The position numbers and the translations under genes are program-made. Shown piece by piece: positions 1 through 13,908 of a stretch of DNA of 64,000 nt. Within the stretch, counting starts at the first letter, position 1. Each line of letters starts with the position of its first letter. Under the pieces are notes generated by a model. The model was not told where the DNA came from. It made no database searches and was given only the letters and a program-made list of their open reading frames with translations. Source of the DNA: the human T2T-CHM13v2.0 reference genome, Homo sapiens; assembly GCF_009914755.1 (NCBI RefSeq), contig NC_060931.1. The stretch is one strand, 5' to 3'.

Positions 1-747
1 GAACACAGACCCCTTGAACAATGATGAACCAAGCTACGGGTGTCCGGCCTTGGATCCTGTGTTTTCTGGAACTTTGCTGCCAATGAGGTGAGTAACCAGA
101 GCCCTGTGGTGGGTTAAGGGGCCTGCTGTTGACCTAACACACCTGTCTCCTGGGGCCTGCTGCCACCTCTGCTCTTCTCACACTGCCTTGTCAGTGCCTC
201 TGGCTTTGTCCCCACTGTGCTTGTTGTGAGTAAATCTCAGATTTGGGGGAAATGCATACTTTCCAATTTCATTAGCAATACACTTTCAAATGCGCCTGTG
301 ACCAAGAAAAGGATAAACTGCAAACTGCAGTTTGTAAACGAACAAAATCCCTTCTTTCTGAAGCCCCTGTGATTTGCTCTGACACCTTCCTGTCAAATCT
401 AAACAGAGTCCACTGGGTAAAGACACCTGTGCAACCCTGCCTGCTGGGCTGGCATCCATACCCACACGCACACCTGGATGCTCTGACCTTGCTGCTGCCT
501 GTTCCTTCCTTGTGGGGCTGGACATCCTGAGAACAGGGCCTACATTTAAAGTTTGTGATGTTTTTGAAGCCAGCAGTGCTAACCAAAGATGCCAGGAAAT
601 GAGGAGGAGCAAAGAAAGTGACATAATTGAGGGAAGAAATATGCCTGCACTGCCCTACGTGGGAGGCACTCTCATAGCCACTCTCATAGCCACTCTCAGC
701 TACTGGAGCTTAAGTTACTTACAATTAAATAGAATTAAGAATTAGCT

Positions 748-987
<240 letters not shown>

Positions 988-3900
988 TCAGTAGCCAAGA
1001 TACAAACTATACAATGTTTCCATCATTGCAGAACACCCTCGGGGCCAGCGCTGGGCTGGGCAGCCTCGCCTTTTTCCGGGCAGTGCGGCCAGCATTGTTT
1101 CCTCAGAGCAGCTGCATCCAGACAAGGGAGGGGTTCCCAGTTCATCTACATTCTTGGGCCATACTCCTCCACCTGGGGTTTGCCGAGCACTGCACTGGTA
1201 CAACAGGGAGCACAACACAGAACCAAACTCACTGCTTCCCTCCCGAGGACGGAGGGGTGTGCTGCTTAAGGTGAGACGTGGATGCAGCCAAGCAAACTGG
1301 AAAACATCGAGTTTTGAAAACTGCTTTAAGTAAAAATATTCTGAATAAAATTAGGTAAATGGCTTCCAAATATGGCCCATTTTAAGAAATCACTATCTAA
1401 GCTCCTCATTTAGAAACAAAGACTCGATCAGGATTTTGACTCTCCTTATGACCTTGATGAAAGGAGGAAAAAACACAAGAAAAATCATTTCTTTGCATGA
1501 AATCAATGTGCAAGGACGGAACCCCCTGGCTGGAAGAGATCCTGGGAGGTCTTTCCCTTTGTCTTCATTGTTTTAAACAAAAGCCACCTCCTTAGAATTT
1601 GTTTTTAAGCCACATTCTGTATTTCAGATTTAATACTTAGTTTCTAAAACTGCTTCTTAGGTGATAGTTCACTTAGTCAACCCCTGCCTTACTCCACAGA
1701 CTTAAGGTGTTTAGTATGCACATAGTTCAGAATGAATACCTGAAAGTAGGTAGCACTGCCTGAAGACTTTCAGTAGTCAAAGTAGAAAAGCAAACACAGG
1801 TGTTTACACAGTTCACAGTGTAAAAAGGCACAGAGCTGCAGTTTACACAGCACAGGGTTCCTCCTCAGATGGAAACTTCAGCAATTGTTCTCACATGGGT
1901 TTTCATACTTGAAGATGTAATAGATGGCATTTAATGATACTAAGTTTCAGATTTGGGGAAATATTACATTTGCAACTCAGGCAAGTGTATACATAAAATA
2001 TACAAGGAAAAATAACACTAGAATGATGGTTATCATGAGCAACCAACTTCGTTTCTCAGGTTTCAATGCAAGCCCAGGTTCTGATCATTATCATCTCATC
2101 TTCTGCCTGCTTCAGTTTCTCACCTCCAAATGGAGCTTCCCGGGAAAGCACCTGGCCCGCCAGCATCACTTGACCTTCTTCTCTTTGGATGAGCAGTAGC
2201 ACATGCTGACATGTCCCTTCCTAGCAAGACTGCCAGTCACTGTCATTTCCATTCTGTTCCTTGAGGCAGCTTGTGGACCTCTACTCATTTACCTTTAGAT
2301 ATTCTACATCTTTTTTTAATTAACACCCTATCCCCACTCCCAGCCCACGCTCTGGGTCCCATCACACTCACGGAGACAAACACAGTGCTTGGGCAAATTT
2401 TTGTAATTAGTTGTGGTGAAAAGAAAGAAAAATTGATAAGATCTTGGTAGAATGTCAAACTTACCATCCTTTGAGCTGGTTCCCAGAGCAGGCTGCACCA
2501 AGGAGAGCAGGGGCAAGGCTGCGATCAGCCCCCTCCACCCCATTTGCAAGCAGGCTGCTCCAATGGGGCTGCTGATCAGCATTCAAATCAGGGGTGGCTT
2601 TGGGGAAGTGAGCACAGGTAGAAAGCCCATAAATGGAACCCGAAGCAACAGGGACTGGCCTTGCTCCGCCCCATGGGCTGGAGCAGTGAGCCTTCCCTGC
2701 CTCCATTAGCATCTTGGGACAAGCAGCCAATCATAAGCACCCCCTGAGAAAGAAATCTCATGCCCAGAAGAGCTCTGGGGCCTTAGCCTCCCTTCACCCC
2801 AATATGCTTCTGGGCCGTTTTCTCTGAGATAAGTATGTCCTAAGTGATGTTAATTTGCAGGGAAATATGTGTCAATCATCTGTGAGGCTCAATAGTAGCT
2901 CCACTAAAGAAAAACAACATAGTTATTGAAGTATCATGATTTTGTGAAAAATAGCTGAGTGCCCTGTAATTTGCAGTGGAAGGGCATCATGGTACACTTT
3001 TAAAGCCATTGTCAAGTTAGAAAAGACAAATTTGCTATACCTGGGACTAAAAGTAGGTACTCTGTCTTATATAAAATCCTCAATAATTTGAATTATAAAT
3101 GGCACCTCTCTCTTCTGTAGTTTTCCGTGCTTTCCATTGGCTTCAAAATAAAATTAAATATCATGGCTTGATATTTAAATACCTTGATAGGCTGCCCCCA
3201 AATGCCTTGGGTCCTTTGGCCACTTGGAGTGTAGGGGAACATAACCATACCCTAACTGTTCTCTCTGCAAAGTCACATGCAGCAATTCCACTGAAGGAAT
3301 GCGATGATCACAGTAGGAATCATCTTTCAGCACTACAGTTTGGTGATCACTTTGATTTTTCTGTCTCAAAAGTACATTACAAATAGGGAATTGCCATAAC
3401 CACCTCTGCATTTATCTTGTTCCAATGCAATTGTTAAGAAAAGCATAACACATGTATTACATGGGGTAATGTTTTAGGCCCTCAAGCACTTATTTTGAGT
3501 AGTATACAATTATCCGTATCATCTCAGCTTCCTCACCCTCACCTGCCCACCTTGTTTCCATCAAGGTGTCCTTTCGTCTGGAGTGGTTTCTCCACACTGA
3601 TTATTTGATACAGACAACTGGTATTTCATGAAGTATGAATAGAATCCTCTTAGGAAAGGACTGCTACTTATGTGAGCCCAGATCGTATGATGGTACATGC
3701 CAAGGCAGACCCAGGACAAGTCCCATGGTCCCTCTCAGCTTCCCCATGGAGCTGAGTTGGAGCACCACTGTTTCTCTTGGTTATTTCAGACCTGTCCAGT
3801 GTGAAGGGAGGCCCACCTGTCATTTGGGACAGGTTAAGCCACCAAACATCTAAGAATCACACTGGGCATTTCTTTCTAGATTTAAGACTGCATGCTCCAA

Positions 3901-4523
3901 AAACTGGTAAAGCCCCAGGTAGGAGCTGCTGTGGGAAGGCCAAATTTGAACTAGGTGAAGTGTTAATGAGGAAGTCCAGCATCCCATCAAGCACTTCCCT
4001 CACGAGGGCCCCTTATGTGCTCTGCCTCCTTGGCAGGGTTTATTTGCAAACAGTGAAAGAAGTGAACAGAGAAAAGACAAAAACACAAGGTAGATGCCCT
4101 CCACTCTGTTCTGGTTCTCACTTCTGTCTGGTCATGTTTTTCTTCCCCTGTAAGGGGAGGATCCTCCCCCAGAAGGCTTCACTAGAATTTTCTCTCAGCA
4201 AGGAAGATAACCAAAAAGATAATTTTAAATTGAAACTAGTATGGTAAAAAGTGGTTAGTGTATATATGTAGACTCCTTTAAATTTTTAAATAGCTTGAGG
4301 TTAGAAACACAGGGCTGTCTGGTCACAAGGTTTGAGCCCTAAGGTCACTGGATGATGTCATGGTGCGCTAAGACACGCCAACCAAACCTCTATGAGCCTC
4401 GGAAGAGCCATGGAAGTCACCCAGTCTGCACTGTGTGCTGCCGTGAACTGGCAGCCTCTGGTTAGCAGCGTAATTTCACTGAGAAAAAAGCCAGTTTTTG
4501 CTTGTTTTGTTTGGTAAGGCTTA

Positions 4524-4897: not shown

Positions 4898-6225
4898 GCT
4901 TATAAATGCTCACATTTTACGCTTCCCAATTTAGAAACCTGCCAATGAGTAATGCTATTTTCTCTTATTCCAACCACCACAGGTGGTCAGCATGTTTAGT
5001 CACTGTTAGAGAAACTGTCTCAAGAGGCTGAATGACTTGCCCCAGACTAGGACGCTGGAAAGAGCCAAAATCCATTCCCAGATCTTAGGGTGTGGAATTC
5101 AGCATCTTTCCAAGCTACATATGCTGGTTATGGTTGTAAGATTGGTTCATTTGGTGCTACAGGCGAATAGGAACTAGATTCCAGGAAGGCGGCTACATTT
5201 TCTCGTGCTACCCACAGGGTCATCTTCCTTACTGTCCAGTGATTTGTGAAGTCCTGTGCGTGGCTGGTCTCTCCCAGGATCTTTTAGCCTACAACTTAAT
5301 AACTGGTCACTCTGCCCTCACTGCAAAGACTGTTACAGACACTGATTGATCCTCATCCATGTTGGGCCCATGGTAAAAAGAGATGATTCTGCAATGTGGT
5401 GCCACCTTAGTGATCGAGACTCCAGTATTCTAAACCTGGCATAACATCAAAATGACAAATAAAAAGTTTAATTTTCTATTTATGAAAATAAGGATGTGCT
5501 GTGAAAAGAGTCTGAAGTCCAATGTTCGGGAAACTGTAATTGCCGAGTGAATGTGTAAGGCACTCAAGTAACAAATATTTATTATTTAGTCCCTTAAAAA
5601 TAATTTACTTTATTACAAAGATAGTAATACAATTTCTAGAAAATACATGCATGTACAAAGATTGAAATAAAAAAAACACTCATAAATATCCAGATTTAAA
5701 TGTCAGCATATACCTTCCTGATCTTTTTCTATCATACTGTATCTATCAACATCTAACCTGCTTTTTTAACTATAAGTCATACATTTTGCCATATCAGTAC
5801 ACTTTTTTCTGTAACATTATTTTTAGAGCATATCAAACCATAGTTTATTTAACCAATCCCCAATTAATTCATAATTAGAATATTTCGTGTTTTTCCAGTA
5901 TAACAGTTCTATAATCTTTGATTATAACCTTTGTGTAAATTCCTATAAGTATTGAGTCAAAGGAGACACACATCTTTTCAGGCATTACATATAAAATAAA
6001 TACTAAACTAGACTCCAGGAAAGTGGTATCAATTCACATTCCCAATAGCACTGTCCCAATGGGGCTAATTTATCTCCTTTTTAATCTCAGCGTATTTCCA
6101 GTTATAACATACCATTTTTACCTCTTGATTCAACAATTGTACTTAGAAGAAGCTCTAAAAATCCAAAACTGAAGCTTCCTTTTAGACCCTCCCTATTACA
6201 ATCCGTATGAAAGTACAGAATTCGA

Positions 6226-7016
6226 GAGTGACATCAGCCAAACGGAGGAGTGAAACTTACTGGCTTCTCTCCCTACCACATAATTTCAACTAGCAAATAC
6301 CCAGTGGCAAGATTATTGCCCTGAATATCCCAGAAATTGGGAGTGAAGCTGTGACAACTCACTGGACCACAGAGCCAAGAAAAACCATGATCAGAGGTAA
6401 AGAGAATGGTTCTGTTTGATCATAACACCTCTCCCGCAAGCCCACATAGCACCGCACTTGGAGAATTTCTCTGGAATCAGTTTCTACAGTGGGAAAAGAG
6501 AGTGGGAGGTGGGCATTCACCTTCCGCACCATTCTGAGACTCTTCACAGGGGCACACTATGGTCCTTTCCCCCTGGAAGCACTGCAGGTGCCAGCAGGGT
6601 TAGCCTGCTAGGTGTAAATTAGAAACAAAGAATGGGGGTGGGGCTCACAGCAGTCAACAAACAAATCACAGAGTGGACTGCAGGGAACCTGGGCTTAGGG
6701 CACCATTTGGCACTACACGGGCTGTAGCGTTCACGGGCTTAAAGACCAAAAAAGACAGTATGCTTACAATTTCTGGACAGACCTACTATACAAGGACAAT
6801 CACAGACAAAGCCAGATTGCAAAGACTGTTTATAAATACCTACATATTCAATGCACATATATCAATGTATAACTACAAAGATGAAGAACAGTCAGGGAAA
6901 CATGATGTCACCAAACAGACAAAGTGCCAGTGACTGACTCTAAAGAGGCAGAGATATATGACATTCCTGAGATAATTCAAAATAGCTGTCTAAAGGTATA
7001 AAACTCCCTGGTAAAA
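6226..7016 (+). mobile_element. Old L1 (L1M/L1MA-type) 5' UTR and ORF1 start, internally deleted
   Basis: GAGAGTGACATCAGC-type L1M 5' start; CAGGGAAACATGATGTCACCAAA...TTCAAAATAGCTGT ORF1 start; AAGGTATAAAACTC.CTGGTAAAA inter-ORF-like motif. Confidence 0.65.
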
Positions 7017-7551
7017 ATAACTCAGGAACTGATAACCAAATGATGATGATGATGATGATCAACCCAGAGGACTGGTTGAATTCGTTGCTCAAACCAGAGA
7101 AAAACACTGTCCTACTAAATGATACTATTTTAAATAAATTGATTGGTCATTACTGTCAAGCAATTGAAGTAATTTGTCCAGATACATATAAAGATGAAGG
7201 TTTTGCTCAAATTCAAGTGAGATTCAACAGCTGAATTAAAGCTATTCAAGAGCCAGATGATGTATAAGTGGCTATAGCAAACTGCAAGACATTTGCTTTT
7301 GTGCATATATCTTCTGCACAGTTTGAAATGTCTCAAGGTAATTTCAAAAAAAGTAAACACCTTCTTCATAAAGCTGTAAAATGTGGAGCAGTACCACTAG
7401 AAATGCTGCAAATTGCCACGCAGAATTGAAACCTCCAACAAAGTAGCTGCTTTCAGCGAAGGAAAAGAGTTCATCAACATTGACAATATTAACTACCCAA
7501 GAATCATTCTCTAGTTCATTGAACATTTACAGAATAGGAACATGCTGTAAT
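7017..7551 (+). pseudogene. Processed pseudogene fragment of TTK/MPS1 kinase (N-terminal TPR region), frameshifted
   Basis: Translates as ...[40 protein letters not shown]...FAQIQVRF and, after a frameshift, [47 protein letters not shown]. This matches recalled TTK NNPEDWLSLLLKLEKNS...NKLIGRYSQAIE...[26 protein letters not shown]. No introns; stops and indels present. Confidence 0.9.
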
Positions 7552-7741
7552 TAGGCAATTAGGCAAGAGAAAGAAAAGGCATCTAAATTGGAAAGGAGGA
7601 AGTTAACTGTCTCTGTTTACAGATGACACGATCATAAGTAGAGAAAATCCTAAAGACTCCACCAAAAAAACTGTTCGAACTAAAAAACATTCAGTAAAGT
7701 TTCAGGATACAAAATCTACAAACAAAAACTAGTATTATTTC

Positions 7742-8005
7742 TTTTTTTTGAGACAAGATCTCACTCTGTTGCCCACGCTGAAGTGCAGTGTTGCAATCAC
7801 AGCTCACTGCAGCCTCAACTCCCTGGGCTCAACCAATCCTCCCACCTCAGCCTCCCAAGTAGTTGGGACCACCACACCTGGCTAACTTTTGTATTTTTTG
7901 TAGAGAAAGGGTTTTGCCATGTTGCTCAGGCTGGTGGCAAACTCGCGAGCTCAAGCAACTCACCTGCCTTGGCCTCCCAAAGTGCTGGGATTACAGCCAT
8001 AAACC
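7742..8005 (-). mobile_element. AluJ-like element
   Basis: Antisense Alu; TSD-like AGTAT(T/C)ATTTC. Confidence 0.85.
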
Positions 8006-8078
8006 AGTATCATTTCTATACATTAATGGTGAACTATATGAAAAAGAAATCAAGAAAATCCCATTTACAATACAATTA

Positions 8079-8080
<2 letters not shown>

Positions 8081-8119
<39 letters not shown>
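8081..8119. repeat. (TA)n microsatellite
   Basis: Perfect AT dinucleotide run. Confidence 0.95.
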
Positions 8120-8121
<2 letters not shown>

Positions 8122-9021
8122 AGAAATAAACTTAACCATGGTGAAAAATCTCTAGGATGAAAACTATAAAACACTGATGAAAGAAACTGAAGACACAAAT
8201 AAATGGAAAGTTATCCTGTGTTCATGGATTGAAAGAATTATTTCTTAAATGTTCATACCGTCCAAAGCAATCTGCAGATTCAGTGCAATTCCTATCAAAA
8301 TACCAATGACATTCTTCACAGATAGAAAAAAAAATCCTAAAATTCGTATGTAACCACAAAAGACCTTGAATAGCCAAAGCAATCTTGAGCAAAAAGAACA
8401 AAGCTGGAGGCATCATAATACCTGACTTCAAAATATGCCATAAAACTAAAGTTATAAAAACAGCATGGTACTGGTATAAAAACAGATAGATCAATGGAAC
8501 AGAGAACCCAGGAATAAATCCACACATTTACAGCCAACTGATATTCAACAAAGGCACCAAGAACACACATTTATTGAAAAGAAAGTACAGTCTTTCAATA
8601 AACGATGCTGGGAAAACTGAAAATCCACATGCAGAAGAATGAATTAAACCCTTATCTCCCACCATATACACAAATCAACTCAAGATGAATTAAAGACATA
8701 GATTTAAGACCTGAAACTATGAAACTGCTAGAGGAAACACAGGAGAAATGCTTCATTACATTTATATGGGCAAGAAGTTTATGAACAAGACTTCAAAAGC
8801 ACAGGCAACAAAAGCAAACAATGGGCAAATCAAACTACATCAAACTAAAAAGCTTCTGCACAGCAAAGGAAACAACCGATAGTGAAGCGACAACCTATAG
8901 AATGGGAGAAAATATTATATTTGCAAAGTATACATCCAACAAAGGTTTAATATCTAAAATATAAAAGGAACTCAACTTAATAGTAAGAAAACAAATAACC
9001 CTGTTTAAAAATGGTCAAAAG

Positions 9022-10677
9022 CCCTCTCCCTCTCCCTCTCCCTCTCCCCACGGTCTCCCTCTCCCCACGGTCTCCCTCTCCCTCTCTTTCCACGGTCTCC
9101 CACTGATGCCGAGCCAAAGCTGGACTGTACTGCTGCCATCTCGGCTCACTGCAGCCTCCCTGCCTGATTCTCCTGCCTCAGCCTGCCGAGTGCCTGCGAT
9201 TGCAGGCGCGCGCCACCATGCCTGACTGGTTTTCGTATTTTTTTGGTGGAGACGGGGTTTCGCTGTGTTGGCCGGGCTGGTCTCCAGCTCCTAACTGCGA
9301 GTGATCCGCCAGCCTCGGCCTCCCGAGGTGCCGGGATTGCAGATGGAGTCTGGTTCACTCAGTGCTCAATGGTGCCCAGGCTGGAGTGCAGTGGCGTGAT
9401 CTCGGCTCGCTACAACCTCCACCTCCCAGCCGCCTGCCTTGGCCTCCCAAAGTGCCAAGATTGCAGCCTCTGCCCGGCCGCCACCCCGTCTGGGAAGTGA
9501 GGAGCGTCTCTGCCTGGCCGCCCATCGTCTGGGATGTGAGGAGCCCCTCTGCCTGGCTACCCAGTCTGGAAAGTGAGGAGCGTCTCTGCCCGGCCGCCAT
9601 CCCATCTAGGAAGTGAGGAGCGCCTCTTCCCGGCCACCATCCCATCTAGGAAGTGAGGAGCGTCTCTGCCCGGCCACCCATCGTCTGAGATGTGGGGAGC
9701 GCCTCTGCCGCGCCGCCCCGTCTGGGATGTGAGGAGCGCCTCTACCCGGCCGCGACCCCGTCTGGGAGGTGAGGAGCGTCTCTGCCCAGCCGCCCCGTCT
9801 GAGAAGTGAGGAGACCCTCCGCCTGGCAACTGCCCCATATGAGAAGTGAGGAGCCCCTCCGCCCGGCAGCCACCCCGTCTGGGAAGTGAGGAGCGTCTCT
9901 GCCCGGCAGCCACCCCATCCGGGAGGGAGGTGGGGGTCAGCCCCCGCCAGGCCAGCCGCCCCGTCCGGGAGGGAGGTGGGGGGGTCAGCCCCCCGCCCGG
10001 CCAGCCGCCCCGTCCGGGAGGGAGGTGGGGGGTTCAGCCCCCCGCCCGGCCAGCCGCCCCGTCCGGGAGGTGAGGGGCGCCTCTGCCCGGCCGCCCCTAC
10101 TGGGAAGTGAGGAGCCCCTCTGCCCAGCCACCACCCCGTCTGGGAGGTGTACCCAACAGCTCATTGAGAACGGGCCATGATGACAATGGCGGTTTTGTGG
10201 AATAGAAAGGGGGGAAAGGCGGGGAAAGGATTGAGAAATCGGATGGTTGCCATGTCTGTGTAGAAAGAGGTGGACACGGGAGACTTTTCATTTTGTTCTG
10301 TACTAAGAAAAATTATTCTGCCTTGTGATCCTGTTGATCGGTGACCCTATCCCCAACCCTGTGTTCTCTGAAACATGTGCTGTGTCCACTCAGGGTTAAA
10401 TGGATTAAGGGTGGTGCAAGATGTGCTTTGTTAAACAGATGCTTGAAGGCAGCATGCTCGTTAAGAGTCATCACCACTCCCTAATCTCAAGTACCCAGGG
10501 ACACAAACACTGCGGAAGGCCGCAGGGTCCTCTGCATAGGAAAACCAGAGACCTTTGTTCACTTGTTTATCTGCTGACCCTCCCTCCACTATTGTCCTAT
10601 GACCCTGCCAAATCCCCCTCTGTGAGAAACACCCAAGAATGATCAATAAAAAAAAATTAAAAAAAAAAAAAAAAAAA
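9022..10677 (+). mobile_element. SVA retrotransposon, near full length (subfamily not resolved)
   Basis: (CCCTCT)n head, antisense Alu-like region, GC-rich VNTR (~9470-10145), SINE-R (HERV-K LTR-derived), AATAAA at 10645 and poly(A). Confidence 0.97.
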
Positions 10678-10991
10678 CTGTAAAAAAAAAAAAAAAAAAA
10701 AGCTCCATATTTACAGCTGTAATATCAAATAAAGTGATTATTTTTTACAACCCCCTTAACACCTTTTGGAGATGGCGTTTCTGTTTTCAGAAATTAACGT
10801 AAAATCAAGAAGCAAGATTCCATAAGCTCAGAACTCTGGACAGCTGATCAGGTTTACCTATGGTGCTTTGCCTTTAACTAGAGTGTGTGACGGTAGATTA
10901 TTTCAGATATGTATGTAAGACTGTTTCCTGAACAATAAGATGTATGAAAGGAGCAGAAATAAATAATTTTTCTAATTAAAAAAAAAAAAAA
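10678..10991 (+). other. SVA 3'-transduced unique sequence with its own AATAAA and poly(A)
   Basis: Lies between the SVA poly(A) and the right TSD ATGGTCAAAAG (10993-11003; left copy 9011-9021). Confidence 0.88.
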
Positions 10992-10992
10992 C

Positions 10993-11773
10993 ATGGTCAA
11001 AAGACCTGAATAGACTTCTCAAAAGAAGACAAGCAAATGGCCAACGGGTATATGAAAAAATTTTCAACATCACTAATCATTAAGAAAATGAAAATCAAAA
11101 TCACAATGAAATATCACCTCAGTCACCTCATACCAGTTAAAATGGCCATTACCAAAAAGACAAAAGATTAGCTTTGTTTGGGCCTTTCTTGGAAAAAAAA
11201 AAAAAAAAGACAGAAGGTAAGTGTTGGCAAGGATGCGGAGAAAAAAAAAGCTTTTGTATGCTATTGGAGGAAATGTAAATTAGTATCCCCATTAAGGCAA
11301 ACAGTATGGAGGTTCTTCAAAATATTAAAAATAGAACTAGCATATGATCCAGCAATCCCACTACTGGGTATTTACCCAAAGGAAATGAAATCAGTACATC
11401 AAAAAGGCATCTTGCACTCCCACGTTCACTGTAGCATTATTCATTATAGCCAAGTTATGGAAGCAACCTAAGTGACCATCAAGAGATGAATGGATAAGCA
11501 AAATGGACATATACACAATGGAGTACTATTCAGCAATAAAAAAGAACAAAATCTTGTCATTTGCAACCACATGGATGAACCCCTGGAGAATATTATGTTA
11601 AGTGAAATAAGCCGGGTACAGACAGTACACGATCTCACTTATATTTAGAATCTATAAAAGCAAATCTCATAGGAGATAGTAGAATGGTGGTTACCAGATG
11701 CTTAAGTGTTTGGGGGCAGCGGGGAAGGCAGATCCTGGTCAATGATATATAGTTACAGTTAGATAAAAAGAAC
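10993..11773 (+). mobile_element. L1 (L1MA-like) 3' part, resuming after the SVA
   Basis: GACCTGAATAGAC..., ATATGATCCAGCAATCCCACTACTGGGTAT, TATGTTAAGTGAAATAAGCC, L1MA-type 3' UTR. Confidence 0.88.
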
Positions 11774-11774
11774 T

Positions 11775-12072
11775 GCTGGGTGTGGTGGCTCATGCCTGTG
11801 CTCCTAGCACTTTGGGAGGCCGAGGCAGGCAGATTTCTTGAGCCCAGGAGTTTGAGACCAGCCTGGGCAATGTGGCAAAACCTCATCTCTACAAAAAATA
11901 CAAAAATTAGTTGGGCGCAGTGGCACACACCTGTGGTTCCAGCTACTTGAGAGGGTGAGGCAGGAGGATTGGTTGAGCCCAGGAGTTTGAGACTGCAGTG
12001 AGCCATAATTGTACTACTACACTCCAGCCTGGGGCACAGAGCCAGACCCTGTCTCCCCCAAGAAAAAAAAAA
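11775..12072 (+). mobile_element. AluJ-like element (copy 1 of a local duplication)
   Basis: Dimeric Alu with AluJ diagnostic GAGCCCAGGAGTTTGAG. Confidence 0.88.
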
Positions 12073-12084
12073 GAGCTAAAAACC

Positions 12085-12360
12085 AGAATAGGCAAATATA
12101 TAGAGACAGATATTAGACAAGTAATTGCCTGGGGCCAGGAGGTATATGGTGGGGGAGAGCAGAATAAGGGAGAAGAGAAAAATGAAAAATGATTACTTAT
12201 GGTTAAGAAGTTTCTTTACTGGGTGATGAAAATGTTCTAAAATTGATAGTGGTGATGGTTGTACAACTCTGAGAACATACTAAAAACCACTAGACAGTCT
12301 ATTTTAAATGGTTGAATTGTGTGATATGTGAATTATATCTCAATACAGCTGTTTTAAAAA
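12085..12360 (+). mobile_element. L1MB-like 3' end
   Basis: GATGAAAATGTTCTAAAATTGATAGTGGTGATGGTTGTACAACTCTG...GAATTATATCTCAATA. Confidence 0.8.
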
Positions 12361-12735
12361 GTTCTGAATTGTTATTTCTTCAAAACGATGGATGCTTTGC
12401 TAAATTGGCAACATACACTAAGAACATGAATGTCATTAAATACCTTTGCCTAGTGGCTGAACCAGAATCCCAACCCCAGGACTACTGTTGAGGCCACATT
12501 CTAGGTCCCCAAGAGTGGGCTCCTTCACACCAGGCACAGTACCTCACTATAAACTCAGCCTACAGACCTGATGGCCAAGCAGTTCCCTGCTGGGCCAAGG
12601 AAGGGCTGGAGGAGGATGGCAGGGCCACTTGGATGCTAGCCAGGAGCAACTGGAATGGGAAATTCTTAAGTGTCTCTGATATGGCACAGAATGACCTCAA
12701 AACTCAGGTGATAAAATTCTTGGATAAAAAGAATT

Positions 12736-13029
<294 letters not shown>

Positions 13030-13908
13030 CTAAAAGCCAGAATAGGCAAATATATAGAGATAGATATTAGACAAGTAATTGCCTGGGGCTAGGAGGTATA
13101 TGCTGCGGGAGAGCAGAACAAGGGAGAAGAGAAAAGATGTGCGTACCAAAAGGATGTGAGGCCCTGAGCCCAGGGCAGGTAAGGCATGGGACTGCCTTAT
13201 TTTACCCTGGCATTTAGGACAGTACTCCACAAACCACAAATTCTTATAAATCACAGCCAGTGAAAGTATGCTCAAAATCCAGAAAGCTCTTTTAAAAAAG
13301 GTCTCAACACTTTGAGATGTTAGTCTTGAAATAAGTTAATGTTTCAAATTATATTCATTCCTTTAAATGGATTAAATTGCTATTTCTTGACCCGGCAAAA
13401 TTTTACCTTGGTAGATCATTCAATAAAGCAGCACTGTGCCCTTCTCTAAGTCTGTGGTGTTGTACCGGCTCCTGCCATCATTTTTCACAGCTCTTTGAGG
13501 AGCAAAGAGGTGGAGGACTTGGTAGACACTAAGTAGCAAGTTGTGATAAGAATCAGAAACAGACACCAACTTCTTGAATCTCAACTAAGGTTTCTTTAGC
13601 CACATTCTACACAAAGATAAAATCTTAAGCCATTCATTAAAATCTTCAAAATTATATGTATTTGATAATAAACATCACATAGAGCAAATGGTTAAGTCAC
13701 TAACACATTCTCTTTAACAGCAATTTCAGTTTTATAAAACTACTTTCAGATATTGTTTCATTTTGTATCATGATTTTTAAGTTTTCTCACTGCAGCTGGA
13801 ATTAATTTCGTTACAATGAGAGGAGGAAGGGTTTAAAAATTAAAACGGTGTCTTCTAATTTTAAAATGTTAATTTAACAAAATATTCCATCCTATTTCAA
13901 CATTATTA

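What the first reader, a model, noticed from the sequence alone, without database searches (positions are those of the whole stretch)
6226..7620. L1-TTK(MPS1)-L1 chimera: spliced mRNA fragment captured inside an L1
Seen in sequence: L1 5'/ORF1/inter-ORF-like sequence runs straight into ~535 bp (7017-7551) that translates as the TTK N-terminal TPR region, and this runs straight into L1 ORF2 RT-region sequence. All parts share one orientation. The insert has no poly(A) or TSD of its own, and the 3' junction carries a short tandem AATTAGGC-AATTAGGC. From knowledge: the TTK region covered (about residues 48-225) spans several exons, so the insert is mRNA-derived, and ordinary processed pseudogenes keep the mRNA 3' end and poly(A). 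Inference: L1 reverse transcriptase switched templates twice (L1 RNA to TTK mRNA and back), or cDNA was patched into a break, replacing the first part of ORF2. This may be an unannotated TTK pseudogene and an unusual type of chimeric retrocopy.
Basis: partly seen in the sequence, partly recalled or inferred. Interest (0 to 1): 0.8.

Follow-up and report, generated by a model that had tools for sequence, protein, structure and literature searches.

The report
Ancient L1 carrying spliced TTK fragment
An old, dead L1 retrotransposon between PKD1L1 and HUS1 has about 3 kb of its middle replaced by a 536-base intron-free piece of the TTK (MPS1) kinase messenger RNA, a rare but harmless relic of how the L1 copying enzyme or DNA repair can stitch different RNAs together.

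Summary
Window 7017-7552 is an intron-free copy of four consecutive TTK exons: 86% identical to the chr6 gene, PDB hits to the TTK TPR domain at E 1e-19 to 1e-20, and the only such copy in the genome.

- The left L1 piece (6226-6996) is the 5'UTR plus about 32 ORF1 codons, not inter-ORF sequence.
- 20 bases of unknown origin (6997-7016) separate it from TTK.
- The right L1 piece starts near ORF2 residue 676. It runs, through two Alus and an SVA, to the L1 3' end at about 12357.

New findings:
- The left piece begins at the exact 5' terminus of its L1 family.
- The whole block is flanked by a 13-base direct repeat (11/13; anchored null 0.16%), so the two L1 ends arrived as one insertion.
- TTK homology starts exactly at an exon's first base and ends mid-exon.
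- The L1 tail and the TTK insert are equally diverged (about 0.15).

Best reading: one retrotransposition event with reverse-transcriptase template switching (0.45). Rivals are a later break repaired with a TTK cDNA patch (0.3) and a single switch onto a pre-spliced L1-TTK RNA (0.2).

This is a rare variant of known chimeric retrocopies, with no sign of function.

The parts
6210..6222 (+). Left copy of the target-site duplication, AAAGTACAGAATT
   Evidence: 11 of 13 identical to 12358-12370. It sits right against the L1 5' terminus. Anchored null 0.16% of 4912 random boundary pairs; unanchored 2.2% of 1967.
6223..6225 (+). Three extra bases (CGA) between the TSD and the L1 5' terminus
   Evidence: Not present in the 4 relatives' termini.
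6226..6901 (+). L1 5'UTR, starting at the family's true 5' terminus
   Evidence: 41 non-self genomic matches at 67-75% identity. Four independent copies start at the same base with unrelated upstream flanks.
6902..6996 (+). Start of L1 ORF1 (about 32 codons, decayed)
   Evidence: Alignment with 9 relatives holds up to ...CTAAAGG at 6996. The relatives then continue with ORF1 and the window does not.
6997..7016 (+). 20-base filler of unknown origin (TATAAAACTCCCTGGTAAAA)
   Evidence: No more like the L1 continuation than shuffles (437 of 500 shuffles score as high or higher). Not the preceding TTK exon (8/25 end-anchored; local score reached by 70 of 300 shuffles). No significant match in 26 kb of the TTK locus.
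7017..7242 (+). TTK exon after the ATG exon (C6:81216204-81216426), copied from its very first base
   Evidence: 84.9% identity. The genomic exon is preceded by an ag acceptor.
7243..7337 (+). Next TTK exon (C6:81216781-81216887), carrying a 12-base deletion
   Evidence: 88.4% identity.
7338..7477 (+). Next TTK exon (C6:81219207-81219350)
   Evidence: 87.9% identity.
7478..7552 (+). First 65-75 of 115 bases of the next TTK exon (C6:81219827-...). The copy ends mid-exon, at about codon 227-231.
   Evidence: Homology is clear to 7542 and possible to 7552.
7549..7564 (+). 3' junction: AATTAGGC twice. TTK and L1 both carry CCAGAG at the corresponding point.
   Evidence: Alignment of the window, the TTK exon and 5 L1 copies.
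7557..7741 (+). L1 ORF2 from about residue 676, including the reverse-transcriptase active-site box (reads FTDD at about 7616-7627)
   Evidence: Residue number extrapolated.
7742..8017 (-). Later Alu insertion plus its TSD copy (AGTATYATTTC at 7731-7741 and 8007-8017)
8018..9021 (+). L1 ORF2 continued. 8806-8964 corresponds to ORF2p residues 1003-1053.
   Evidence: PDB 8uw3/8sxt, E 1.5e-6. 40 genomic relatives at 73-79% identity.
9022..11003 (+). Later SVA insertion with about 274 extra bases and a second poly(A). TSD ATGGTCAAAAG at 9011-9021 and 10993-11003.
11004..11773 (+). L1 ORF2 end and first part of the 3'UTR
11774..12076 (+). Later Alu insertion within the L1 3'UTR
12077..12357 (+). 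Rest of the same L1 3'UTR to its 3' end. At most about 5 A of tail remain.
   Evidence: 7 of the 9 relatives aligned carry both 3'UTR parts contiguously. 2287 first-look candidates, 39 non-self scored at 73-94%. 13.9% different from the majority of 10 relatives.
12358..12370 (+). Right copy of the target-site duplication, AAAGTTCTGAATT

Best explanation
Proposed mechanism: one L1 retrotransposition event produced a three-part cDNA, roughly 70-100 million years ago. That date is a rough reading of about 0.15 substitutions per site.

Proposed steps:
1. Reverse transcription was primed at a nick in the target, at TG/AAAG.
2. It copied an L1 RNA from its 3' end back to about ORF2 codon 676.
3. It then jumped to a spliced TTK mRNA, in the middle of the fourth exon after the ATG exon, at a short patch of similarity (CCAGAG).
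4. It copied about 536 bases of TTK, back to the first base of the exon that follows the ATG exon.
5. After about 20 bases of unknown origin, it resumed on L1 RNA at about ORF1 codon 32.
6. It ran to the very 5' end of that L1 RNA.
7. The product integrated with a 13-base target-site duplication.

Shown: the anatomy, the spliced origin of the TTK piece, the single TSD around a block with true L1 termini, and equal divergence of L1 and TTK.

Inferred: that both internal junctions were made by the reverse transcriptase during that one event.

The element is a dead pseudogene. Nothing found here points to a function.
For: - The two L1 pieces are collinear, share the + strand, and have the true family 5' terminus (4 independent copies start at the same base) and the true 3' end.
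- A 13-base direct repeat, 11/13 identical, lies exactly at both ends. It is reached by 0.16% of 4912 random anchored boundary pairs.
- The TTK piece has the same orientation as L1, as a template switch requires.
- The insert carries four exons without introns and has no poly(A) or TSD of its own.
- At the 3' junction, TTK and L1 share CCAGAG at the switch point.
- The ages agree. The L1 3' tail is 13.9% from the majority of 10 relatives (JC 0.154). TTK insert against the gene is 14.0% (K2P 0.156).
- There is only one copy of the insert in the genome, so it is not a family.
- Double template switches giving tripartite chimeras flanked by direct repeats are described (PMC2104539, Background and section 8 read).
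Against: - The TSD is imperfect (11/13), and hardly any poly(A) remains (at most about 5 A, sequence).
- The nick site TG/AAAG is only a partial match to the recalled TT/AAAA preference.
- The 5' junction is not a direct join. It has 20 unexplained bases. A filler plus a microhomology is also what end-joining repair leaves (PMC5110952, passages read).
- A switch gives no reason for TTK homology to start exactly at an exon's first base. I estimate that as a 3-5% coincidence.
- Equal divergence cannot exclude a patch added during the first quarter or so of the element's life.
- I could not show that both L1 pieces belong to one subfamily. Three of 6 elements with the left-type 5'UTR had a readable 3' end, and all three carry a different 3' tail.
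- No orthologous loci could be examined.
Confidence: 0.45

Rival explanations
1. Later break repair. A complete full-length L1 inserted first; this accounts for the TSD and both termini. Afterwards a double-strand break inside it was repaired by end joining. About 3 kb of L1 was lost, and a reverse-transcribed piece of spliced TTK mRNA was captured as a patch (a class 2 templated sequence insertion).
For: - The insert has no TSD and no poly(A).
- It comes from several spliced exons.
- One junction has 20 untemplated or unknown bases. The other has a short microhomology.
- Recipient sequence was lost.
- These are the features listed for class 2 insertions (PMC5110952, abstract and passages read).
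- Collinearity of the two L1 pieces follows automatically.
Against: - Orientation would be random, and it is the same as L1, which favours switching by a factor of 2 only.
- The patch would have landed by chance inside one of the rare full-length old L1s.
- The deletion (about 3 kb) is far larger than the microdeletions described for this class.
- TTK and L1 divergences are equal, so the repair would have had to follow the insertion fairly soon.
- If the left and right pieces really are different subfamilies (the hint), this model fails.
Confidence: 0.3
2. One switch onto a pre-formed hybrid RNA. An RNA already consisted of the L1 5' end (5'UTR, about 32 ORF1 codons and 20 further bases) spliced, in cis or in trans, onto the acceptor of the TTK exon that follows the ATG exon. 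The reverse transcriptase, copying an L1 RNA, switched once to this hybrid RNA within a downstream TTK exon and copied it to its 5' end.
For: - TTK homology starts at the exact first base of an exon that is preceded by an ag acceptor.
- The sequence before it is not the upstream TTK exon.
- The 5' part then reaches the true 5' end of its RNA, as in classic two-part chimeras (feature i in PMC2104539).
- Exon-L1 chimeras whose junctions fall on splice sites, some with short untemplated bases, have been described and attributed to possible trans-splicing (Law and Burns; sections 24 and 32 of the preprint read).
Against: - No L1 of the left type lies within 20 kb upstream of the exon or elsewhere in the 36.7 kb of the TTK locus examined.
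- The L1 sequence does not end at a recognisable donor. The 20-base filler is not L1, so the donor would have to lie in unknown sequence.
- The described cases join gene first exons upstream of L1, not L1 upstream of internal exons.
- The exon-boundary match could be chance (about 3-5% by my estimate).
Confidence: 0.2
3. Independent insertions joined by deletion. Two unrelated L1 insertions and a TTK retrocopy were brought together by later deletions.
For: The only hint is that the closest 5'UTR relatives with readable 3' ends (3 of 6) carry another 3' tail type than the window's right piece.
Against: - L1 insertions are truncated at the 5' side, not the 3' side, so the left piece cannot be an insertion of its own.
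- The TSD pairs the left piece's 5' terminus with the right piece's 3' end.
- There is no second TSD, no second poly(A), and no remainder of another L1 beyond 12370.
Confidence: 0.03

Closest known systems
LINE-mediated chimeric retrogenes made by template switching, including tripartite ones (Buzdin, Gogvadze and co-workers; PMC2104539)
   Same: - Parts from different RNAs are fused in one orientation.
- The 3' part is a 5'-truncated L1 that runs to the L1 3' end.
- The 5'-most part reaches the 5' end of its RNA.
- The whole is flanked by a short direct repeat.
   Different: - L1 is at both ends, and the cellular mRNA is an internal fragment in the middle.
- The 5' part is only the first 771 bases of L1, not a full-length RNA copy.
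- One junction carries 20 extra bases.
- According to that paper, the two human tripartite elements known then had no recognisable direct repeats. This one has.
mRNA/L1 5' chimeras with splice-site junctions (Law and Burns, Cell Genomics 2026, PMC13174262)
   Same: - Spliced gene exons are fused in sense to L1 within one TSD-flanked insertion.
- One junction falls exactly on a gene splice site.
- No L1 is present in the parent gene today.
   Different: - Their 17 cases put first exons, ending at a donor, upstream of a nearly full-length L1.
- Here internal exons, starting at an acceptor, sit downstream of an L1 5' end and replace the L1 interior.
- TTK occurs neither in the main text nor in the 4 supplementary files held (some cells are cut).
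Class 2 templated sequence insertions (cDNA patches at double-strand breaks; Onozawa and Aplan, PMC5110952)
   Same: - A piece of spliced cDNA without poly(A) or TSD.
- A filler at one junction and a microhomology at the other.
- Loss of recipient sequence.
   Different: - Those are recent polymorphisms or experimental events at arbitrary sites, with small deletions.
- This is an ancient fixed insert inside an L1, in the L1's orientation, with about 3 kb lost.
Classical processed pseudogene
   Same: Intron-free copy of an mRNA, decayed by stops and frameshifts.
   Different: - It lacks the mRNA 3' end, a poly(A) tail and a TSD of its own.
- It covers only codons 47 to about 230 of TTK.

Membership tests
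LINE-mediated chimeric retrogene (template-switch chimera) | The 3' part is a 5'-truncated copy, usually of a LINE, ending at the LINE 3' end | tested here: met
   The right piece starts at about ORF2 residue 676 (extrapolated). It runs to the family 3' end at about 12357.
LINE-mediated chimeric retrogene (template-switch chimera) | The 5' part is a full-length copy of a cellular RNA (reaches its 5' end) | tested here: inconclusive
   The 5'-most part starts at the exact L1 family 5' terminus, but it is only the first 771 bases of L1. The TTK part is an internal fragment.
LINE-mediated chimeric retrogene (template-switch chimera) | Parts directly joined in the same transcriptional orientation | tested here: inconclusive
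   Same orientation: yes. The 3' junction is direct, with a microhomology. The 5' junction has 20 unexplained bases.
LINE-mediated chimeric retrogene (template-switch chimera) | The whole chimera is flanked by short direct repeats (TSD) | tested here: met
   13 bases, 11/13 identical, at both ends. Anchored null 0.16%.
LINE-mediated chimeric retrogene (template-switch chimera) | Poly(A) at the 3' end and an L1 endonuclease-type target site | tested here: inconclusive
   Only about 5 A remain. The target reads TG/AAAG, against the recalled TT/AAAA preference.
Classical processed pseudogene | Contains the mRNA 3' end with poly(A) and has its own TSD | tested here: not met
   The copy ends mid-exon at about codon 230 of TTK and abuts L1 ORF2. 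No A-tract and no repeat lie at its borders.
Classical processed pseudogene | Introns absent | tested here: met
   Three exon-exon junctions are present.
Class 2 templated sequence insertion (cDNA patch at a break) | No TSD, no poly(A); end-joining marks (microhomology, untemplated bases, loss of recipient bases) | tested here: met
   About 3 kb of L1 is missing. These marks do not exclude template switching.
Class 2 templated sequence insertion (cDNA patch at a break) | The insert arrived after the recipient sequence was already in place | not testable with these tools
   This needs orthologous loci of other mammals. Divergences are equal (0.154 against 0.156) and so cannot decide.
Splice-mediated L1/mRNA chimera (cis- or trans-splicing before reverse transcription) | The gene part ends or starts exactly at an annotated splice site | tested here: met
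   TTK homology begins at the first base after the ag acceptor of the exon at C6:81216204.
Splice-mediated L1/mRNA chimera (cis- or trans-splicing before reverse transcription) | A matching splice site in the L1 partner at the junction | tested here: not met
   L1 homology stops 20 bases before the junction. No donor can be assigned.
Splice-mediated L1/mRNA chimera (cis- or trans-splicing before reverse transcription) | For the cis form: an L1 resident in the parent gene | tested here: not met
   No left-type L1 in 36.7 kb of the TTK locus. None at E<=1 in the 10 kb upstream of the exon. Only the present-day human genome was examined.

The most novel reading that the evidence does not exclude
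The 5' junction was made by the splicing machinery. An L1-initiated RNA supplied a donor that was joined, in cis or in trans, to the acceptor of an internal TTK exon, and the hybrid RNA was then captured by a template switch. This would be the mirror image of the exon-to-L1 trans-splicing proposed by Law and Burns. It would show that L1 RNA can act as the upstream partner in such RNA recombination. It would also leave a fossil of an L1-promoter-driven TTK transcript.
Probability: 0.2. Interest if true: 0.6.

Novelty: new variant of a known kind. Interest (0 to 1): 0.4.

Why it matters
This is a clean human example of an L1 whose interior was replaced by a piece of spliced cellular mRNA. Both true L1 termini and a recognisable target-site duplication are present.

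Tripartite chimeras are the main evidence that the L1 reverse transcriptase can switch templates twice. According to PMC2104539, the two human cases known at that time lacked flanking repeats.

The exact exon-start junction also bears on the recent proposal that splicing joins L1 and gene RNAs.

In practical terms, it is a TTK pseudogene fragment that the RefSeq table supplied with the finding does not list. It could attract mis-mapped TTK reads. Nothing found here suggests a function.

Tried and rejected
- Two different L1 3' ends. I first read the right L1 as two different L1s ('L1X' ending at 11772 and 'L1Y' from 12078) and considered a four-part chimera or a 3' transduction. Aligning 9 relatives showed both parts contiguous in 7 of them, so it is one ordinary 3'UTR split by an Alu. 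Rejected.
- Origin of the 20-base filler. I tested it against the L1 continuation, the upstream TTK exon and 26 kb of the TTK locus. A 10-base hit at GGTAAAAATA in the TTK intron proved to be chance. The origin remains unknown.
- A resident L1 in TTK. None was found.
- Same-subfamily test:
  - Six 10-kb loci with the left-type 5'UTR were fetched.
  - Three had readable 3' ends, all with another tail type.
  - The others were broken by young L1 insertions or out of range. Two extensions, of 1.6 and 1.8 kb, again hit young L1s.
  - Five of the best ORF2 relatives showed no L1 where a 5'UTR should be.
  - Both tail types are equally distant from the window in the shared ORF2-end and 3'UTR part.
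  - The question stays open.
- Divergence of the left piece. Its distance from the majority of 17 relatives (20.1%) is uninformative, because the relatives are a mix of subfamilies.
- Identity of the flanks. They look like an older L1 on the minus strand. Support is weak:
  - DNA searches found nothing.
  - PDB and Pfam searches with minus-strand frames found nothing.
  - tblastn with a young L1's ORF2 gave only short, collinear, non-significant hits: 20 bits at 6068-6006, 15.8 bits at 5858-5838, and E 0.78 at 12700-12671.
- A PDB search with the 41-residue frame at 7607-7732 gave only spurious hits.
- Locus L043 has an internally deleted L1, but with other breakpoints, so there is no recurrent deletion.
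- Literature. A search for 'TTK', 'processed pseudogene' and 'chromosome 7' found one unrelated paper, seen as a listing only. No paper naming this locus was found.
Full report
**What is there**

Window 7017-7552 (+ strand) is a copy of TTK (MPS1) mRNA.
- Two of its open stretches hit only the TTK N-terminal TPR domain among solved structures (4h7x/4b94; E 6.1e-19 and 3.8e-20).
- A search of the window's own genome with 7005-7555 gave five matches: the window itself and four separate blocks of the TTK gene on contig C6.
- I located the exon borders in the fetched gene. The blocks are consecutive exons of 223, 107, 144 and 115 bases, each with ag/gt borders. In the window they abut without introns (7017-7242, 7243-7337, 7338-7477, 7478-about 7552).
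- The exon carrying the ATG ends at C6:81214377 after 46 codons plus one base.
- Identity is 455 of 529 (86.0%), K2P 0.156, with several indels. Every frame has at least 7 stops.
- It is the only such copy in the genome.
- The RefSeq table supplied with the finding lists no gene here.

**The L1 pieces**

The left piece (6226-6996):
- It has 41 non-self matches in the genome at 67-75% identity.
- Four of them start at the same first base as the window (GAGTGACATC...), each with an unrelated upstream flank. So 6226 is the true 5' terminus of this L1 family.
- Aligned with nine relatives, homology holds through the 5'UTR and about 32 codons of ORF1, up to 6996. The relatives then continue with ORF1 and the window does not.
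- That these codons are the ORF1 start rests on the relatives' continuation and on my recollection of old L1 ORF1 N-termini. No protein-level hit confirms it.

The right piece:
- It begins at 7553-7557, about 20 codons before the reverse-transcriptase active-site box. The window reads FTDD. I recall this as FADD at about residues 700-703 of human ORF2p.
- Window 8806-8964 aligns to ORF2p residues 1003-1053 (8uw3/8sxt, E 1.5e-6). That places the start at about residue 676.
- It continues to the L1 3' end at about 12357, interrupted by three later insertions:
  - an Alu on the minus strand (7742-8006, 11-base TSD);
  - an SVA with extra 3' sequence (9022-10992, exact 11-base TSD);
  - an Alu on the plus strand (11774-12076).
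- I first took the sequence after the last Alu for a different L1. In 7 of the 9 relatives aligned, the two 3'UTR parts are contiguous, so it is one element.

About 3 kb of L1 is missing: most of ORF1, the spacer and 676 ORF2 codons. It is replaced by 20 + 536 bases.

**One insertion**

- AAAGTACAGAATT (6210-6222) lies three bases before the L1 5' terminus. AAAGTTCTGAATT (12358-12370) lies directly after the L1 3' end.
- A match of at least 11/13 at such anchored positions occurred in 0.16% of 4912 random boundary pairs from the window. Anywhere within 45/55-base flanks, it occurred in 2.2% of 1967 pairs.
- A 3'-truncated L1 5' piece cannot be an insertion of its own.
- Nothing beyond 12370 continues the left L1.
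- The block 6223-12357 therefore arrived as one L1-bounded unit.
- The flanks look like remnants of an older L1 on the minus strand. Only short, collinear, non-significant protein matches support this. DNA, PDB and Pfam searches found nothing.
- Weak points: the repeat is imperfect, only about 5 A of tail remain, and the nick site (TG/AAAG) is a partial match to the recalled L1 preference.

**The two internal junctions**

The 3' junction:
- TTK homology is clear to 7542 and possible to 7552. L1 homology starts at 7556-7557.
- The TTK exon would continue for another 40-50 bases, so the break is mid-exon.
- At the corresponding points, TTK reads ...GATTCCAGAGGAC... and L1 copies read ...CCAGAGCAATTAGGC....
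- A join at the shared CCAGAG, followed by small deletions, would give the observed AATTAGGC-AATTAGGC. A simple tandem duplication is the alternative.

The 5' junction:
- TTK homology begins at the exact first base of an exon preceded by ...ttatttag.
- The 20 bases before it (6997-7016) are not the upstream exon: 8/25 end-anchored, and the local score is reached by 70 of 300 shuffles.
- They are not the L1 continuation: 437 of 500 shuffles score as high or higher.
- They are not found in 26 kb of the TTK locus.
- I estimate the chance of a random breakpoint falling within 2 bases of an exon border at about 3-5%. This is my estimate, not a computed result.

**Age**

- The L1 3' tail differs from the majority of 10 relatives at 37 of 266 sites (JC 0.154).
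- The TTK insert differs from today's gene at 14.0% (K2P 0.156). That figure includes the gene's own changes.
- The two are of like age, very roughly 70-100 million years at usual mammalian neutral rates (recalled).
- This fits a joint origin. It cannot exclude a patch added early in the element's life.

**Same subfamily?**

- Of six 10-kb loci carrying the left-type 5'UTR, three had a readable 3' end (L040, L043, L044). All three have a different 3' tail from the window.
- The other three were broken by young L1s or out of range.
- Five of the best ORF2 relatives were not full length.
- In the shared ORF2-end and 3'UTR part, both tail types are equally distant from the window, at 70-75%. They are therefore close lineages that may share 5'UTRs.
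- Many relatives share only the first about 425 bases of the 5'UTR, which shows that these 5'UTRs are modular.
- The question stays open. It matters because different subfamilies would exclude a later patch.

**Mechanism**

Three readings explain the anatomy.

(a) One retrotransposition with two template switches, L1 to TTK mRNA and back to L1.
- For: the single TSD, both true termini, the same orientation, the microhomology and equal ages.
- Tripartite chimeras flanked by repeats are described. According to the same paper, the two human ones known in 2007 lacked recognisable repeats (PMC2104539).

(b) A later double-strand break in a resident full-length L1, repaired with a TTK cDNA patch.
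- The insert shows every mark of class 2 templated insertions: no TSD, no poly(A), spliced template, filler and microhomology (PMC5110952).
- Against: the shared orientation, the chance landing inside a full-length L1, and the size of the deletion.

(c) One switch onto an RNA in which an L1 5' end had already been spliced to the TTK exon.
- This alone explains the exact exon start, and why the 5' part reaches an RNA 5' end.
- It echoes the splice-site junctions of Law and Burns.
- Against: no donor can be assigned, the filler is unexplained, and no such L1 lies in or near TTK today.

I put these at 0.45, 0.30 and 0.20. Independent insertions joined by deletion get 0.03. A single retrotransposition event, (a) plus (c), gets about 0.65.

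**Comparison and novelty**

- The element works like the LINE-mediated chimeric retrogenes. It meets their TSD and 3'-part criteria.
- It differs in three ways: L1 is at both ends, the middle is an internal mRNA fragment, and there is a filler.
- It is not a classical processed pseudogene, having no mRNA 3' end, poly(A) or own TSD.
- TTK is absent from Law and Burns's main text and from the 4 supplementary files held, in which some cells are cut.
- My searches found no paper on a TTK pseudogene at this locus.
- I rate it a new variant of a known kind. It is a well-preserved curiosity with bearing on mechanism and no sign of function.
- The decisive evidence, orthologous loci in other mammals and Dfam coordinates, was out of reach here.

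Noticed in passing
window 9022-11003: An SVA: CCCTCT hexamers at 9022-9086, a 40-base VNTR at 9466-10149, and poly(A) at 10648-10701. It is followed by about 274 extra bases and a second poly(A), all within an exact 11-base TSD (ATGGTCAAAAG). The extra piece has a 99% copy at C6:160086587-160086859 (minus strand), older copies at 86-93%, and a two-block match at C6:56813775-56814363. This suggests a 3' transduction from a chr6 source that itself lies in an old retrocopy.
   Followed up: partly
window 11759-12181 and 12720-13135: A second copy of the Alu, with about 14 bases of L1 before it and the first about 105 bases of the L1 3' tail after it, lies about 960 bases downstream. Overall identity is 87.6%, and 94% in the L1 part. 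It may be an Alu copied together with flanking sequence, or a local duplication.
   Followed up: partly
window about 5790-6222 and 12371-12740, minus strand: The flanks of the element read like a much older L1 ORF2 C-terminal remnant on the opposite strand, split by the insertion. Support is limited to short, collinear, non-significant matches.
   Followed up: partly
L043 (G000:C23:49681500-49691499), positions about 460-4440: A related L1 with its own internal deletion: the 5'UTR is joined within about 300 bases to mid-ORF2. The breakpoints differ from the window's.
   Followed up: partly
loci L012-L037: Many relatives share only the first about 425 bases of the window's L1 5'UTR. Others share only the part from about 450 to the ORF1 start. 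The 5'UTRs of these old L1s are modular.
   Followed up: no
window 8082-8120: A (TA)n microsatellite has expanded inside the L1 ORF2.
   Followed up: no
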